Source: Rhina ancylostomus (Eukaryota). From it: a stretch of DNA of 64,000 bases. Position numbers: made by a program. How positions within the stretch are numbered: the stretch's first letter is position 1; every line of letters begins with the position of its first letter. Below are positions 6,001-60,000 of the stretch, piece by piece. Where the stretch lies: assembly GCA_030265395.1 (NCBI GenBank), contig JARFYF010000118.1, positions 24,765,277-24,829,276 of the forward strand, given 5' to 3'.

Positions 6001-9000
6001 TCAAGGTCACCAGAGAAGATATTCAACCTACTAATGTTGGTAGAATGCAAAACTCTGTTTAGAGCACCACTGATCTATTAATGGCTTTAGTATAAAGTTG
6101 CTCAATGGCTTTATTTTATCTCTAGGGAAGTGAATGGTAAGAGTGATGTAGAAAATGCATACCATCAGTCTGCAGCGGATGCTGGCAACTTCACTAAGAG
6201 CACAAGAATGTGACACAACATGTCATTGAAGAATGGCCCGAATTTGAGCAATGCTGACTATCGTCTATTTGGAATTGCTGAGCTCTCCTCTGCATTTTAA
6301 CTTGTAGCTTGTATTCATTTGCAGGAAACTATATATCAGTACTGTCAAAAGAAAAATTGGGTAAAGAACTTGGCTTTTTAAAGATTATTGAATAATTCTG
6401 TGTTGGTGATTTGAACACAGGATGAGCCATCAGAGTCAGGTACAACAAATCAAAGGAGTTGTTTATTTTACGTGACTGAAAATGCCCAATGTGTAATTTG
6501 AATATGGTGGTGTTTTGTTTCTTTGTTTTTAAGGCAAAAAATAGACAGCCATGTAATGTATAAGAATGTATCCCTGGGATTTTATAAGCATACTACTGAT
6601 AGTCCATCTGATGGGATTTCAAGTAGAGCATGCATTTGTCTCAATGCTTCACCTAATGCATAGAAACACAACTTTATAAAATAATGGCAGACTCTATTTG
6701 AAGGAAAAGATTAAAAAGGAAGTGATTTAACAATCTTGGATTCTTGTTTCATATTTGGGGTAGTCCCTTACACTTTCCCTATTGCTCCAAAGTCTCATAT
6801 AAAATGTGAAGCTGCTTCACAAAGTTTCCTCAAGTTTTGTTAATGGGAAGTAATGTCATAAAGTTCTGATTTTCTACTTTTCACCAATGTCCAACCCTAA
6901 TGGGGTTTATAAAATTATGATGGGCATAAATAGGGGAGATAGTCTTCTTCCAAGAGTAGGAGCATCTAAGTCTAGAGGACATAGGTTTAAGGTGTGAGGG
7001 AAAATATTAAAAGGAGATCTGAGTGATATGTTTTTCAAACGGAAAGCTGCCAGAGGAGGTGGTAGAGGCAGGTACAATCACACGTTTTTTTGGACAGGTA
7101 TATGGATAGGATAGATGGGAAAGGAATAGAGGGATATGAGCCAAATGCAGGAAAATGGGATTAGTGTAGGTAGGCATTTTGGTTGGCATGGACGAGTCGG
7201 GCGGAAGGGCCTCTTTTCCCCCCCGTACCAATCTATGACTCTAAATCTGGTTTGTCTTTTTACTGTGCACAATAAAGGCCAATGGCTTCTAAAGGTTTAA
7301 ATCTGGTTGTTTTCAAATAATCACCTCTTTATAAATACCAGGCCTGATTTCAAATTATGTCTGCTTGAAGATAAAATAGACCAAAAAAGGAATGCTAGAG
7401 AAATCAACCTGAGCAAGACATCAGACAAATATTATGCACCTTTCCAAAGAAATCCCATCATATTCCTGGATACTCTGGTAAGAATATTGTCTTCAATAAC
7501 TTTAGACTTCAGCTATTTCCTCCATTTTCTTTTACTGTGAGCATTGCTGGCGACAGTCTCTCCACACTTGCAAGGGAAGGGGGAGTTATACTTCTGGATT
7601 GCACAAGGCCCCCCATCAGAACATAACAGAGGTGGTGCTGTGTTCATTAACATGAACTACTTCTGAAAGTTCTGCTGGAGGTACAACTGCTTTTGTTTTG
7701 TTCTTGTTCAATTCTGCCACCCATCTGAGAATTGGGTTTGTTTGAATTTGCAGTCTCTAATGTTGATTTCTTGAAGATCTTTTTGTTGTCTGAAACAAGT
7801 TAGAAAATGAACTTTTACTGATTCATGATGATTCTTCTAGTTCCATGTCCCATTGTCTTCCCAGAAGAATTATTTATGTCAATGAGATCCAGTACGTTGG
7901 ATTTCATTTTAATTCTAAAACATTAAGACTCCTACAATTATTCACTCTTCAGTGAATAAAATGGTAATTTTATCATCTTCATCTTTATTCACTACTGAAA
8001 ACCTCATCTTATATTTGATTGTAATCTTTACAATTCCCTCCTATTCTGTATATTTCTTTTCATAATTTGGTCTTCTTCAGAATTCCTTCTTATTTTCTTG
8101 GTATAAAACATTAGGAAATTGGAATTGGTGCATATCTGTGTTCCAATATATTCATTATGAAGGTTCATTCTTTGAGTATTGATTAAGTGGCTCCATGGAG
8201 TTGGCAGGTATCTATAATACCTGCAGCTTGTTCAGTCGTAACACTGATTCATGTGGAAATATCCTCATGTTCCATCTTGATGAATTCTTCATCTCCTTTA
8301 TCTTTTTTGGAAGATTTGCCATCTAACTATTCATAATGATTGCCCGTGGTTAGCAAATCATGGGATTCAGTACTTTCATTGGCCTCTTTGAATCTGATTG
8401 AGTCTAGGCAATATGGTGTTACAGCAAATTCAAGGAGCTGGCTCTCTGCAGTTGAAATTGATTCTTTCTTCTGCAAGTCATCAATGCTCCTATCTACTGT
8501 CTTGTCAGTAAACAAATGTATGATTGACTGAATTAATTGCCCTTGCAGCTTTTCTATTGTTCCTTTCAGTTTGGAAAAGTTAAACTTTTCTCGATTAGGG
8601 CTATTGACATTATGAAACTCAGATTTCAGTGACCCTGTTTCTCATTCGTAGATCTTTCCTGGTTGAGAGAAGCTGGGCTTTTATTCATATTCCTCTTTTC
8701 AAAATTATGTTCAAACATTTATTTCAGTTCTTTTGAGAGTCTGTTTTCCATCATCAGTTTTTGCTTATGGAGATATTTGAACCCTTTATTTGTCTAAATG
8801 AAATTCTTTAGTCACTGCTATTTTGTTTGGTTCATTTGCTTCATGCTGTTCCAATTCTCATTTTCATTTAATTTCTCTGCAATGCTTAATGCAGATTTTA
8901 CCATCAACAATTTAAAGCTCCTTTTTTCTGTATCTCTGTGTACTTCTGAAAAGCGGTCAGGCCTTTTGCTCACATAATTATCTCTAAATGCAAATCCCTT

Positions 9001-57000: not shown

Positions 57001-60000
57001 CATCTTCCCAACCTTTTCCACCTCCTGGGTTAATAAGTTAAAGCACCTTCACCTTTACTAATCTGGAATTACCTCTGTCACTGTCCCTGGGCCCATCAAA
57101 ATTCCTTTGGTTGTCCAGGACAGCACAAAGATGGGGTAGTGATGAGCGACAAAGGGTTAAAGCAACCAAAATTCCTTGAGAGGCCACCAAGTGTTTGACC
57201 TAATTCTGCCAGCCTTGAAATTTAAAAAAAACAATCTAATATGCTTGAAACTCACAAATGGACTCTATATTACCCGAGGCCAATTTTCAAACTGGTGATC
57301 TGTGGAGTGAAAACATCTTCCTCTCCGATTCTCATTGCTGGGTCAGGGACTATTAACTGGGTCAAGGCGCAGCGAGTCCAAGGGAATGTGCTGTCGAGCA
57401 GTCAGTTCACCAATACTTCCCATGGGAGGACCAACCTACACACTGGTAGCTCATTCCCTGTCTCCACAATTCAGGGGAAGTCCCATCGACTTTGGACAGC
57501 ACAGTGGCACAGTCAGCAGAGCTGCTGCCTCACAGCCTCGGTGAGCCAGGTTCAATCCCGGCCTCTGGTGCTGTCTGTGTGGAGTCTGTACGTTCTCTCT
57601 GTGACCAATTAAGTTTCCCAGGTGCTCTGGTTTCCTCCCACATCCCTAAAGATAGGTACTTGGATGGGAGGGGTTTGGAGGGATATGGTCCAGGTGCAGG
57701 TAGATTGGACTAGGCAGAAGATCAGGTCAGCATGGACTAGATGGGCCAAAGGGCCTGTTTCTGTGCTGTAGTACTCTACGACTCTAAAAGACATGCAGGT
57801 TTGTGAGCCACTGTAAATTACAAGAAGGCTACAGATGTGAGGTAGATCGGCTGGCTAAGCGGTGTTGCAACAACAACCTCGCACTCAACGTCAGCAAGAA
57901 CAAGGAATTGATTATGGACTTCAAGTAGGGGAAGTTGGGAGAACACACACCAGTCCTCATTGAGGGGTCAGCAGTGGAAAGGGTGAGCAGCTTCAAGTTC
58001 CTGNNNNNNNNNNNNNNNNNNNNNNNNNNNNNNNNNNNNNNNNNNNNNNNNNNNNNNNNNNNNNNNNNNNNNNNNNNNNNNNNNNNNNNNNNNNNNNNNN
58101 NNNACTGTCCTTGAGCCTGGTGGTACGTACTTTCAGGCTTTTGTGTCATCTGCCCGATGAGAGGGAAGAAGAGAGAATGTCTGAGGTGGGGGGTCTTGTT
58201 TATGCTACCTGCTTTAGCAAGGCAGTGAGAAGTATAGACAGCTTGGACCTACAGTATTTGGCACTTACCATTAAGGTCAGGGCCATTTCATTATCAGCAG
58301 TTAATTACAATGTGCATTTTGTAAAGGCATTGACCTCATTTGTCAAGAAGGTCCATAACTGTGTCTTAAGCCAGATATTTATGTGGCTTAGATATATTAT
58401 GTGCAGACATCTTAAGAATACCTATGTAACCAGAATATAGGAGCAGAAAATGGAAATGATAGAACAGAGAACATAGAAAAACTATAGCACAATTCAGGCC
58501 CTTCAGCCCACAAAGCTGTGCCAAACATGTCCCTACTCTAGAAATTACAAGGCTTACCCATAGCCCTTTATCTTACTCAGCATAGAAGAACAACTCAACA
58601 TAGAAGGACAAATATTGACAAAGATCAAATATTGTTTTCAAGAAGACAACAGCCAAGGGTCTCAGACCTGAAATGTTAACTCTTTTTCACTTTCTGTAGT
58701 TGCTGCCTGACCCACTGAGTTTTTCCAGCAGTTTCTATTTTTAGTTCAATAGCCATTAACGTATTCCATGTCAGATAATGCAATGCTTTTTCTGATGTGT
58801 AAGCCCTAGAATCATTACTCACCTCTTGTCTTTCCTCTGATTCTTGGCTTCTTAGATTCATTTCATTTTGATATCTGTGAGAACAAGCCAAGCACAGATC
58901 AGCTGCAATCGGTTATAACCAGAGAGAGGATCCCACAATCAAGTGTCTCCTACAAGGAGTTGCACACTTCCTGTCACGAGGCATGAGGGATCTCCTTCCA
59001 ATTTCTTATCCCACAATAAGGGATGCTACAGTCTTCACTTCACCTAATCTTCACACAAATCAGGAAGCAAACGGAACTGGCTTTGAACCTGGTGCTGTCT
59101 CTGCAGCATGGTTCTCAGTGGGTTGCAGACAAGTGTGGATAGTCATCTAATGTGACAGGGTGATATTGGTGTGTTGGTGAAGTGGAATGAGGAATGGAAG
59201 ATGGACTTTAATCCTGATAAATGTGAGGTGATACATTCTGGGTGTACCTATAAGGAAAGGACGCACACCATGACTGGTAAGGTCCTAGGTAGTATTGAGG
59301 AACAGAGGGACCTTGGTGTACCAGTCCAAAAATTCTTGTAAGTGGCAGAGAGAAGGCATATGGAATACTGGCCTTCATCTATCAGGGCATTGAACTCAAG
59401 AGCAGGGAGGATATGCTCCAATTTTATAAAACATTGGTCAGACCACAGCTGGAGTACTGCACGCATTTCTGGTCACCACACTATAGGAAGGATGTAATAA
59501 TGCTGGATACGGTGCTGAGGAGATTCACCAGGATATTGCCTGGGATGGAGCATTTTAGTTATGAGGAGACACTGGAGAGGTTAGGTCTGTTTTCCCTGAA
59601 CCAGAGGAGATTAAGATGGGACATAATTAAGGTATGTAAAATTATGAGGGGTATTGATAGCTAGACTGTAGGAATCTTTTCCCCCTATCAGAAGTGAATA
59701 AAACTAGAAGACATAGATTTAGGGTAATGGGTAAGATATTTAGAGGGCTTCTGAGGAAGACCTCTTTCACCCAGAGAGTGGTGAGTACCTGGAATGTACT
59801 ACCAGAGAGCGTAGTGGAAGCAGAGTCCCAGACTGGATATAAGAAGAGTTTAGATGAACACTTGAATTGCCTAGACATTGAAGGCTCTGGGCCAGGTGCC
59901 AAAAGATGAGATTAATACAGGTGGGTACACAGAATCCTGAAACATCAGCAATGCCTTTCCGCACAGATGCCACAGGACCCACTGAGTTCCTCCAGCAGAT

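What the first reader, a model, noticed from the sequence alone, without database searches (positions are those of the whole stretch)
7245..58861. XIRP1 with an XIRP2/EPLIN-type gene architecture: N-terminal exons, Xin exon and LIM tail
Seen: the giant exon has an XIRP1-type N-terminus and sits next to an SLC22A13-like gene. It is flanked by spliceable upstream exons with EPLIN-like motifs and by a downstream LIM/WPP exon. Established: mammalian XIRP1 is coded by essentially one exon with no LIM domain, whereas XIRP2 has upstream coding exons and LIM exons that give the short EPLIN-like 'XEPLIN' isoforms. Inference: both paralogs started as an EPLIN-like gene containing the Xin exon, and this cartilaginous fish keeps an intermediate stage of XIRP1 simplification. 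I cannot confirm that this is undescribed.
[Added by the scan's program, not by the reader: the finding's places include an assembly gap (unread letters, written N; its length is only estimated) at 14503 to 14512, 21778 to 21943, 25840 to 25849, 28461 to 28491, 30540 to 30607, 32180 to 32196. Whether the letters on both sides are continuous or in frame is not known: test that first.]
Basis: partly seen in the sequence, partly recalled or inferred. Interest (0 to 1): 0.85.

Follow-up and report, generated by a model that had tools for sequence, protein, structure and literature searches.

The report
Ray XIRP1 gene with LIM tail
The muscle actin-binding gene XIRP1 of a ray or sawfish has small coding exons before its giant exon and a zinc-finger (LIM) tail after it, a layout known from its sister gene XIRP2 that is probably ancestral, not special to this fish.

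Summary
On the minus strand lies a giant Xin-repeat exon (22730-14904). It is 97% identical to Pristis pectinata XIRP1-like over the Xin-repeat part searched. It falls inside the chondrichthyan XIRP1 clade, split 100/100 from XIRP2. Its two N runs are in frame and colinear with three orthologues. Upstream are five GT-AG exons whose phases chain into the giant exon; a first exon with the start codon was not found. They match the N-terminus of a Heptranchias XIRP1-like model. Similarity to XIRP2 N-terminal exons was not significant, and LIMA1 could not be tested. Downstream are two exons, not one. They encode a complete LIM domain, closest among solved structures to LIMD2 and EPLIN, and end in KLRVSWPPPKTAD-stop. 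RefSeq annotates these exons in Pristis as a separate, 5'-truncated "LIMA1-like" gene. Whether they splice to XIRP1 exons is inferred, not shown. Proteins with both Xin repeats and a LIM domain occur on the XIRP1 side of the tree (a gecko, and unnamed squamate-like and ray-finned-fish-like representatives) and on the XIRP2 side. The layout is therefore most likely ancestral and widespread outside mammals, not an intermediate peculiar to this fish. It is visible in database models; I found no paper describing it. Interest is moderate.

The parts
58823..58874 (-). Upstream coding exon E2 (52 nt, phase 2 in, phase 0 out; reads (R)YQNEMNLRSQESEERQE).
   Evidence: Borders cacag|ATATCA and CAAGAG|gtgagt. 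Weak match to Heptranchias P0008 residues 39-58 (65% identity, E=0.2). Fourth-best of 2724 window ORFs for an osteichthyan XIRP1 N-terminal profile, E=4.1, not significant.
55390..55782 (-). Upstream coding exon E3 (393 nt, 131 codons, phase 0/0).
   Evidence: Borders ttctaag|ATGTCG and AATAAG|gtaagt. No Pfam family. Atlas best score 0.76, uninformative.
51128..51206 (-). Upstream coding exon E4 (79 nt, phase 0 in, phase 1 out).
   Evidence: Borders gacag|GAACCA and AGCTGG|gtatgt. Only a weak match to P0008 residues 178-205 (E=0.89). It is needed to carry the frame from E3 (phase 0) to E5 (phase 1).
31853..31986 (-). Upstream coding exon E5 (134 nt, phase 1 in, phase 0 out) with the motif SVRERSAIYLSKSEA.
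   Evidence: Borders ttgcag|ATGAGG and AAGTAT|gtgagt. P0008: 64% identity, E=3.1e-9; P0163: E=0.011. Its ORF is the best of 2724 window ORFs for a profile built from osteichthyan XIRP1 N-termini only, E=0.0029.
26535..26591 (-). Upstream coding exon E6 (57 nt, phase 0/0), the last exon before the giant exon.
   Evidence: Borders atttag|ACTATT and ATAGAG|gtaaat. Colinear weak match to P0008 residues 250-269 (E=3.4).
14904..22730 (-). Giant Xin-repeat exon: ATG at 22730, stop at 14906-14904. It contains N runs 21778-21943 and 17368-17373. Candidate internal donors are after 14952 (GGA|GTAGTG, phase 0) and after 14905 (TA|GTAATG, phase 2).
   Evidence: P0002 residues 1-2602 align to 22730-14907. 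The C-terminus ..GVVFLSFGNPNSAKRS-stop is conserved across XIRP1.
10464..10594 (-). LIM exon 1 (131 nt, phase 0 in, phase 2 out): [12 protein letters not shown]...CRLKL, first zinc finger and half of the second.
   Evidence: Pfam LIM PF00412, 26.9 bits (cut-off 22.9), profile positions 1-36 of 58. PDB: LIMD2 2lzu E=7.4e-13, EPLIN 2d8y E=2.5e-12 aligned from the exon's first residue; next is CRP1 at 1.3e-5. Borders tattag|TTCCAG and GTTGAA|gtgagt.
9303..9666 (-). LIM exon 2 (364 nt, phase 2 in): rest of the LIM domain, diverged post-LIM motif, linker, KLRVSWPPPKTAD, stop at 9305-9303.
   Evidence: Acceptor cttttacag|CCTCCT. 86% identical to Pristis 'LIM domain and actin-binding protein 1-like' P0122, E=2.8e-62, whose sequence shows the same exon junction. 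Local blastp hits to Xin+LIM proteins of both clades, E=1.5e-5 to 1e-3.
360..4100 (+). 3' exons of a neighbouring SLC22-family transporter gene, convergent with XIRP1 (inside ORFs 360-821, 2257-2511, 3780-4100).
   Evidence: The best solved relatives are SLC22A6 and SLC22A12. Assignment to SLC22A13 was not tested.

Best explanation
This is the XIRP1 orthologue of a batoid close to Pristis, in a multi-exon form. At least five small coding exons lie upstream, and a first exon is missing from the window. Then comes the giant Xin-repeat exon with its own ATG and its own conserved stop. Two downstream exons on the same strand encode an EPLIN-class LIM domain and a WPP motif. Shown: the exons, their splice signals and phases, XIRP1 grouping, LIM identity, and conservation in Heptranchias (N-terminal exons) and Pristis (LIM exons). 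Inferred: the locus works like XIRP2. Alternative promoters and splicing would give (i) the canonical Xin protein from the ATG in the giant exon, ending ...FGNPNSAKRS; (ii) an N-terminally extended Xin protein; and (iii) a short EPLIN-like protein made by skipping the giant exon. Skipping is possible because the E6 donor and the LIM1 acceptor are both phase 0. Also inferred: this layout predates the XIRP1/XIRP2 duplication, and mammals later lost the LIM tail and the coding upstream exons of XIRP1.
For: Orthology. In one search, 1197 proteins scored E<=1e-10 among 7999 candidates, and the best 120 were listed. The top 13 are chondrichthyan-level matches (12 named XIRP1-like, 77-97% identity). 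They are followed by Latimeria and tetrapod XIRP1 at 54-60%; XIRP2 of Tinamus has 47%. The careful tree (46 rows, 983 columns) splits XIRP1 from XIRP2 at 100/100, pairs the window with Pristis at 100/99, and the XIRP1 clade follows the species tree. The C-terminal motifs YEExDxFGN and VFV[ST]FGN-like occur in 19 and 18 of 25 XIRP1-clade rows and in 0 of 14 XIRP2-clade rows. Exon chain. All eight exons have GT-AG borders, and every phase fits the next. The Heptranchias model P0008 (2890 aa) is colinear with E2-E6 and the giant exon. LIM. See; all eight zinc ligands are present. Pristis P0122 shows the LIM1/LIM2 junction as predicted, and its record gives the same longest-contig length (102490209) as P0002. 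P0122 begins at a Met inside the LIM domain, and LIM1 has an acceptor but no in-frame ATG before that Met, so it is an internal exon that needs an upstream coding exon. Same-gene precedent. Xin repeats and LIM occur in one protein in Gekko kuhli P0082 and in unnamed P0124, P0125, P0127 and P0137, all in the XIRP1 clade, and in P0160 and P0168 in the XIRP2 clade. All carry K[LM]xIxWPP after the LIM. Otten 2012 (PMC3280289, passages read) and Wagner 2023 (PMC10259482, passages read) describe this long/short isoform logic for XIRP2.
Against: No transcript evidence was available. RefSeq in Pristis keeps the LIM exons as a separate gene. No protein of 211-2000 aa containing LIM exon 2 exists in the searched collection (333 candidates, none at E<=0.001), so no short isoform is annotated anywhere. 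Proteins above 2000 aa could not be searched with this exon. The Pristis LIM sits on a very long branch (1.51 against a median of 0.22), which fits relaxed constraint. There is no C-terminal domain after the WPP motif, unlike all other Xin-linked tails, which have 109-1034 further residues after the LIM where it was measured. The only in-frame donor near the end of the giant exon is weak (GGA|GTAGTG) and would remove the conserved C-terminus. The upstream exons show no significant similarity to XIRP2 N-termini. Beyond chondrichthyans only E5 is significant. Exon 1 was not found. Rooted on seven distant unnamed representatives, the quick tree put the root inside the ray-finned-fish XIRP1 rows and made XIRP2 sister to chondrichthyan XIRP1 (SH-aLRT 96). 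The unrooted topology is the same as, so orthology to osteichthyan XIRP1 rests on the root lying on the long XIRP2 stem and on the shared C-terminal motifs.
Confidence: 0.65

Rival explanations
1. The two LIM exons are an independent small gene (a LIMA1/LIMD2-like paralogue) that merely lies 4.3 kb downstream of XIRP1 on the same strand. The Xin+LIM proteins of other species would then be read-through prediction artefacts.
For: RefSeq annotates them separately in Pristis as 'LIM domain and actin-binding protein 1-like', 146 aa. The giant exon has its own conserved stop and C-terminus. All Xin+LIM proteins on the XIRP1 side are predictions: one is flagged UNVERIFIED_CONTAM/hypothetical (P0082) and four are unnamed. 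Their Xin-to-LIM junctions differ from one another.
Against: The Pristis model starts inside the LIM domain and lacks the first two cysteines. LIM1 has a splice acceptor and no in-frame ATG before that Met, so the separate model is incomplete. The same Xin-then-LIM order recurs in at least five XIRP1-clade and two XIRP2-clade proteins, with a shared WPP motif. It is experimentally described for XIRP2. Phases allow both skipping and inclusion.
Confidence: 0.22
2. The LIM tail is a decaying relic. The exons are still open in these slowly evolving genomes but are no longer used, on the way to the loss seen in mammals.
For: Long LIM branch in Pristis and in squamates. The window and Pristis are 86% identical in LIM exon 2, against 97% in the Xin repeats. 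The post-LIM motif is diverged. The tail stops right after WPP with no C-terminal domain. The Gekko kuhli LIM scores below the Pfam cut-off (21.5 against 22.9 bits), and the His ligand of its first finger is replaced.
Against: The frame is open with the same stop in two species. All eight zinc ligands and both splice junctions are intact. The WPP motif is kept from elasmobranchs to geckos and ray-finned-fish-like rows.
Confidence: 0.1
3. The giant exon belongs to XIRP2 or to a third paralogue, and 'XIRP1-like' is a mislabel.
For: XIRP2-like gene layout. In the tree rooted on distant representatives, XIRP2 is sister to the chondrichthyan clade.
Against: Identity is 54.6-59.4% to named osteichthyan XIRP1, against 42.5-48.9% to XIRP2-clade rows. 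The split is 100/100, and the XIRP1 clade mirrors the species tree. XIRP1-only C-terminal motifs are present. N-terminal motifs are shared with sauropsid XIRP1 long forms.
Confidence: 0.03

Closest known systems
XIRP2 (mouse Xirp2, zebrafish xirp2a/xirp2b): short exons, giant Xin exon, two short exons; long Xin isoforms and short LIM isoforms
   Same: Same order of parts: small upstream coding exons, a giant Xin-repeat exon, then exons for a LIM domain followed by K-L-x-I-x-W-P-P. Skipping the giant exon keeps the LIM frame. This is the isoform logic described by Otten 2012 and Wagner 2023 (passages read).
   Different: The Xin exon groups with XIRP1. It has its own start ATG and its own conserved stop. 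The upstream exons show no significant similarity to XIRP2 N-termini. No C-terminal domain follows the WPP motif. The LIM is much more diverged.
Mammalian and zebrafish XIRP1 as described in print: 'encoded by a large exon' (Otten 2012, PMC3280289, passage read)
   Same: Same orthology group. Same start in the giant exon and the same C-terminal end.
   Different: Here there are coding exons upstream and LIM exons downstream. I found no paper that gives these to XIRP1.
Database models of non-mammalian XIRP1: Heptranchias perlo XIRP1-like (P0008, 2890 aa); turtle, crocodilian and bird long isoforms (about 2850-2880 aa); Gekko kuhli hypothetical protein P0082 (Xin + LIM)
   Same: P0008 contains counterparts of E2-E6. 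The sauropsid long forms share the SVKERSALYLS and LVARYQ motifs. P0082 joins the Xin exon to a LIM + WPP tail.
   Different: Apart from the gecko model, none of the 120 proteins listed has a LIM domain by a strict zinc-ligand pattern, and the gecko shows up only by blastp. The Pristis model P0002 is the giant exon alone.
EPLIN class of LIM proteins (Lima1, Xirp2, Limd2; Koch 2012, PMC3305314, passage read)
   Same: Among solved structures the LIM is closest to LIMD2 and EPLIN, by 7 orders of magnitude in E-value over the next. The pre-LIM residues FQSPSRE.C align with EPLIN's FQAPARE.C.
   Different: The 22-residue 'Eplin motif' after the LIM is only partly recognisable here (HY.SQ.K.K.NY...F). 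XIRP1 is not listed in that class by Koch 2012.

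Membership tests
XIRP1 orthology group | Xin actin-binding repeats in one giant exon | tested here: met
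   PF08043, E=1.9e-125, 13 stretches, with 56 residues masked; single open frame 22730-14904.
XIRP1 orthology group | Groups with named XIRP1 and apart from XIRP2 in a tree | tested here: met
   100/100 split, and the XIRP1 clade follows the species tree. Caveat: the root is assumed to lie on the XIRP2 stem; rooting on distant unnamed rows gave another root.
XIRP1 orthology group | XIRP1-type N-terminus (start in the giant exon) and C-terminus | tested here: met
   P0002 starts at 22730. The C-terminal motifs occur in 19 and 18 of 25 XIRP1-clade rows and in 0 of 14 XIRP2-clade rows, and the window has both.
XIRP1 orthology group | Conserved synteny (SLC22A13/14 region, recalled for human 3p22) | tested here: inconclusive
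   The neighbour is an SLC22-family gene. The subfamily was not resolved, and the human map position is from memory.
LIM domain (Pfam PF00412) | Two zinc fingers with pattern C-x2-C-x17-H-x2-C-x2-C-x2-C-x17-C-x2-H | tested here: met
   LIM1 scores 26.9 bits against a 22.9 cut-off for profile positions 1-36. The remaining ligands are read directly in LIM2. The Pristis counterpart P0122 scores 26.6 bits for positions 20-56.
EPLIN class of LIM proteins (Koch 2012) | EPLIN-type LIM domain | tested here: met
   Best solved relatives are LIMD2 (7.4e-13) and EPLIN (2.5e-12); next is CRP1 at 1.3e-5. The same ranking holds with P0122.
EPLIN class of LIM proteins (Koch 2012) | Conserved 22-residue Eplin motif directly after the LIM | tested here: inconclusive
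   The alignment to EPLIN runs on through the motif region, but few residues match. The motif's definition is in Table S2, which I could not open.
XIRP2-type gene architecture | Coding exons upstream of the giant exon | tested here: met
   E2-E6.
XIRP2-type gene architecture | Upstream exons homologous to those of XIRP2 | tested here: not met
   hhalign found one 17-column match, P=0.008, probability 4.9%. An XIRP2 N-terminal profile against 2724 window ORFs gave E=2.6 for E5 at best.
XIRP2-type gene architecture | LIM exons after the giant exon, read in the LIM frame when the giant exon is skipped | tested here: met
   E6 donor phase 0, LIM1 acceptor phase 0. Actual use of the junction is not testable with these tools.
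XIRP2-type gene architecture | C-terminal domain after the LIM (exon 9 of mouse Xirp2, Wagner 2023) | tested here: not met
   The stop comes 5 codons after the WPPP of the motif. tblastn with nine tails found nothing beyond the WPP motif in 4000-9300.

The most novel reading that the evidence does not exclude
The first vertebrate Xin gene was an EPLIN-class LIM gene that acquired a giant Xin-repeat exon before the XIRP1/XIRP2 duplication. XIRP1 is then a fourth, overlooked EPLIN-class locus. In elasmobranchs it would still make a short Xin-less LIM protein (E1-E6 + LIM + WPP) beside the Xin proteins, and mammals would have lost that product. The gene named xirp2b in zebrafish may belong to the XIRP1 side: two ray-finned-fish-like groups in the XIRP1 clade carry LIM tails. 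Their names could not be retrieved.
Probability: 0.4. Interest if true: 0.5.

Novelty: new member of a known kind. Interest (0 to 1): 0.35.

Why it matters
XIRP1 is treated in print as a single-exon, LIM-less gene and XIRP2 as the paralogue with EPLIN-like short isoforms. If XIRP1 of cartilaginous fishes, ray-finned fishes and reptiles keeps the same frame of upstream exons and a LIM tail, three things follow. First, the Xin-repeat exon arose inside an EPLIN-class gene before the two paralogues split. Second, the mammalian XIRP1 layout is a secondary simplification. Third, non-mammalian models may express XIRP1 products that mammalian work would never predict, namely N-terminally extended Xin and possibly a short LIM protein. 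There is also a practical point: RefSeq in Pristis splits the locus into 'XIRP1-like' and a 5'-truncated 'LIMA1-like' gene, which probably needs merging or at least re-examination.

Tried and rejected
Exon 1 (Met...SVSKLVA in orthologue models). I used a regex for LVA plus a phase-2 donor, local alignment of five N-termini against 58877-64000, and reading of 62320-63020. Nothing convincing was found. It may lie beyond 64000 or in an N run.

LIM exon 2 against longer proteins (211-2000 aa): 333 candidates, none significant. Against PDB: 0 hits.

Upstream exons against Pfam: nothing above cut-off; DUF2102 at E=0.031, 14.5 bits against a cut-off of 25, is chance. E3 in the ESM Atlas: best score 0.76, no lead. 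E2, E4 and E6 gave no local blastp hit at E<=0.05.

XIRP2 N-terminal profile and hhalign: not significant.

Search for a C-terminal domain after the WPP motif with nine tails: none found.

Poly(A) hexamers follow both stops but are uninformative in AT-rich DNA.

Rfam at gathering threshold: 0 matches. TRF at score >=80: 0 arrays.

I first took the weak donor after ..EENG (14952) as homologous to the Gekko kuhli Xin-to-LIM junction. One search shows the positions differ and that this donor would delete the conserved C-terminus, so I dropped that argument.

One search used wrong exon coordinates and gave out-of-frame peptides. I redid it.

Taxon labels such as 'ray-finned-fish-like' or 'squamate-like' are inferred from tree position only.

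The literature search for 'XEPLIN' found one unrelated review (listing seen only).

Not done. No structure or complex prediction was run. The genome-contig collection (bacteria and archaea) was not used.

Full report
What the window is. The window has 39.9% G+C and 17 N runs. The only long real ORF is on the minus strand, 14904-22760, 2618 codons from stop to stop. The other ORFs above 150 aa either overlap N runs or look non-coding; 55348-55887 holds exon E3 and 360-821 holds an SLC22 exon. Nothing suggests human DNA: all the best matches are cartilaginous fishes.

The giant exon and the N runs. Pfam finds the Xin repeat (E=1.9e-125, 13 stretches). A search with residues 330-1330 gave 1197 proteins at E<=1e-10 among 7999 scored candidates, and 120 were listed. 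First is Pristis pectinata 'XIRP1-like' (P0002, 97% identity), followed by eleven more named chondrichthyan XIRP1-like proteins (77-87%). Latimeria has 60% and tetrapod XIRP1 has 54-57%. Tinamus XIRP2 has 47%. P0002 (2602 aa) aligns end to end with 22730-14907, so the RefSeq model of Pristis is the giant exon alone, starting at the ATG at 22730. Two N runs lie inside the exon. The flanks are in the same frame as written. Pristis and Mobula have 56 and 3 residues opposite the 166-N and 6-N runs. Heptranchias has 56 opposite the first run, but its alignment does not reach the flank ends at the second. The runs are therefore continuous and in frame by colinearity. I did not fill them.

Orthology. 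I took the 1000-residue Xin region and searched the 50%-identity representatives, which gave 104 proteins at E<=0.001. For a tree I used 20 named proteins plus the representatives whose aligned part was at least 850 residues. A quick tree of 58 rows used seven distant unnamed rows as outgroup. It placed the root among ray-finned-fish-like XIRP1 rows and made the XIRP2 clade sister to chondrichthyan XIRP1 (SH-aLRT 96). I then dropped those seven rows, four long or partial rows (P0151, P0159, P0160, P0168) and P0146, and ran a careful search on 46 rows and 983 columns. The XIRP1/XIRP2 split has 100/100 support, and the window pairs with Pristis (100/99). Rooted on XIRP2, the XIRP1 clade reproduces the species tree: chondrichthyans; then ray-finned-fish-like rows with Polyodon and Acipenser; then Latimeria, Protopterus, amphibians, squamates, turtle, alligator and birds. 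The unrooted topology is the same in both trees, so XIRP1 orthology depends on the root lying on the long XIRP2 stem. Independent support comes from the C-terminal motifs YEExDxFGN and VFV[ST]FGN-like. They occur in 19 and 18 of 25 XIRP1-clade rows, including the chondrichthyans, and in 0 of 14 XIRP2-clade rows.

Upstream exons. The Heptranchias perlo model P0008 (2890 aa) has 265 residues before the giant-exon Met, and tblastn places them in the window. Reading the DNA gives five exons with GT-AG borders:
- E2, 58874-58823
- E3, 55782-55390
- E4, 51206-51128
- E5, 31986-31853
- E6, 26591-26535
Their phases (2>0, 0>0, 0>1, 1>0, 0>0) chain without a break into the giant exon, whose acceptor is phase 0. 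E5 hits P0008 (E=3.1e-9) and P0163 (E=0.011). E2, E4 and E6 hit nothing at E<=0.05. A profile built from eleven osteichthyan XIRP1 N-termini, with no chondrichthyan included, picks the E5 ORF as best of 2724 window ORFs (E=0.0029). The E2 ORF is fourth (E=4.1) and E3 is not found. The exons are therefore real and belong to XIRP1, but they evolve fast. Only short motifs (SV[KR]ERSA[IL]YLS, LVxxYQ) reach across gnathostomes. The first exon of the orthologue models was not found in the window.

Are the upstream exons XIRP2- or EPLIN-like? hhalign of 12 XIRP1 long N-termini against 7 XIRP2-clade N-termini gave one 17-column match around SVKE..A.Y (P=0.008, probability 4.9%). An XIRP2 N-terminal profile found nothing significant among the window's ORFs; E5 ranked second at E=2.6. 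Pfam and the Atlas gave nothing. LIMA1 N-terminal sequence was not within reach.

The LIM tail. The tail is two exons. LIM1 (10594-10464) reads [12 protein letters not shown]...CRLKL. It scores 26.9 bits on Pfam LIM, positions 1-36 of 58. LIM2 (9666-9303) completes the second finger, runs through a diverged post-LIM motif and ends KLRVSWPPPKTAD-stop. The split codon (AA|C) gives Asn. The Pristis protein P0122 is named 'LIM domain and actin-binding protein 1-like' (146 aa). It is 86% identical to LIM2 at E=2.8e-62, and its record gives the same longest-contig length as P0002. Its sequence has exactly this junction. Among solved structures LIM1 is closest to LIMD2 (7.4e-13) and EPLIN (2.5e-12), and the EPLIN alignment starts at the exon's first residue; the next hit is CRP1 at 1.3e-5. 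Koch 2012 (PMC3305314, passage read) defines the EPLIN class as Lima1, Xirp2 and Limd2, with a 22-residue motif after the LIM. That motif is only partly kept here, and its definition sits in a supplement that I could not open.

One gene or two? P0122 starts at a Met inside the LIM domain. LIM1 has an acceptor and no in-frame ATG before that Met. The separate RefSeq gene is therefore 5'-incomplete, and LIM1 needs an upstream coding exon. Three junctions are possible.
- E6 to LIM1 (both phase 0) would give a short Xin-less LIM protein.
- The weak donor GGA|GTAGTG after 14952 (phase 0) would give Xin plus LIM but remove the C-terminus that is conserved from sharks to birds.
- The donor TA|GTAATG at the stop codon (phase 2) would read LIM1 in another frame, open for 42 codons. 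[quoted passage not shown]
None of these junctions can be tested here. Several findings speak for one transcription unit. Gekko kuhli P0082 joins the Xin exon to a LIM + KLRIRWPPSK tail. Unnamed P0124 has 20 Xin stretches plus a LIM at 25.9 bits. P0125, P0127 and P0137 carry Xin repeats and LIM, and all of these lie in the XIRP1 clade. P0160 and P0168 do the same in the XIRP2 clade. All carry K[LM]xIxWPP after the LIM. Several findings speak against it. RefSeq splits the locus in Pristis. No annotated protein of 211-2000 aa contains LIM2. The junctions in the predicted proteins differ from one another.

State of the tail. The LIM tree (11 rows, 88 columns) recovers the XIRP2-type LIMs as one clade (89/96) and leaves the XIRP1-linked ones outside it. 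That fits co-duplication but is poorly resolved. The Pristis LIM has a branch of 1.51 against a median of 0.22. No C-terminal domain follows the WPP motif. The tail is intact but short and fast-evolving.

Neighbour. The 3' exons of an SLC22-family gene lie on the plus strand at 360-4100, convergent with XIRP1. Whether it is SLC22A13 was not tested. That SLC22A13 lies near human XIRP1 is recalled, not checked.

Literature. Otten 2012 (PMC3280289, passages read) states that zebrafish xirp1, 'as in mammals', is encoded by a large exon. It also states that xirp2a/b have short exons, a large exon and two short exons giving LIM-bearing short isoforms. Grosskurth 2008 (PMC2478706) contains none of the words exon, intron, LIM or shark. 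Searches for XEPLIN, for XIRP1+XIRP2+LIM domain+isoform, for EPLIN/XIRP2/LIMD2, for XIRP1/LIM domain/shark and for xirp1+xirp2b turned up no paper that gives XIRP1 a LIM tail or upstream coding exons. Subscription journals and supplements were not searchable.

Verdict. The anatomy is real, and the gene is XIRP1. The XIRP2-like layout is best read as the ancestral state, kept widely outside mammals and already visible in database gene models. It is not a stage peculiar to this fish. The link between the LIM exons and XIRP1 transcripts remains the open point.

Noticed in passing
window 14904-14906 and 10464-10594 (minus): A GT at the giant exon's stop codon (TA|GTAATG) would, if used, read LIM exon 1 in the +1 frame. 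That frame is open for 42 codons and ends at a TGA one base before the LIM1 donor. This mirrors the differing reading frames of long and short XIRP2 isoforms in mouse. An open frame of this length has roughly a 0.13 chance by itself (my own estimate, not from a call).
   Followed up: partly
Pristis pectinata proteins P0002 and P0122: RefSeq splits the locus into 'XIRP1-like' (giant exon only) and a 146-aa 'LIMA1-like' protein. The latter begins at a Met inside its LIM domain and lacks the first two zinc ligands, so it is probably an incomplete model.
   Followed up: partly
Latimeria protein P0016: Its source name is 'LIM domain-containing protein', yet Pfam and a zinc-ligand pattern find no LIM in this 2583-aa Xin protein. 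The name may come from another isoform of the same gene, which would hint at a LIM tail in coelacanth XIRP1.
   Followed up: no
Tree: rows P0125/P0127 and P0131/P0137/P0141/P0147/P0152: Two ray-finned-fish-like groups sit inside the XIRP1 clade, and members of both carry N-terminal extensions and LIM tails. Zebrafish 'xirp2b', described with a LIM tail, might belong here rather than with XIRP2. The names could not be retrieved.
   Followed up: no
Gekko kuhli P0082 residues 2521-2573: The gecko's XIRP1-linked LIM has lost the histidine ligand of its first finger and scores below the Pfam cut-off. The other squamate-like row, P0124, keeps the ligand. This looks like lineage-specific decay of the tail.
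   Followed up: no
window 62320-63020 (minus): Open stretches here read like a dispersed repeat rather than an exon. From memory they resemble a cartilaginous-fish SINE, but this was not tested.
   Followed up: no
window 22670-22690 (minus), giant exon residues ~17-30 after the Met: The proline-rich stretch [12 protein letters not shown] lies near the N-terminus. From memory this resembles the Ena/VASP EVH1-binding site of mammalian Xin; it was not tested.
   Followed up: no
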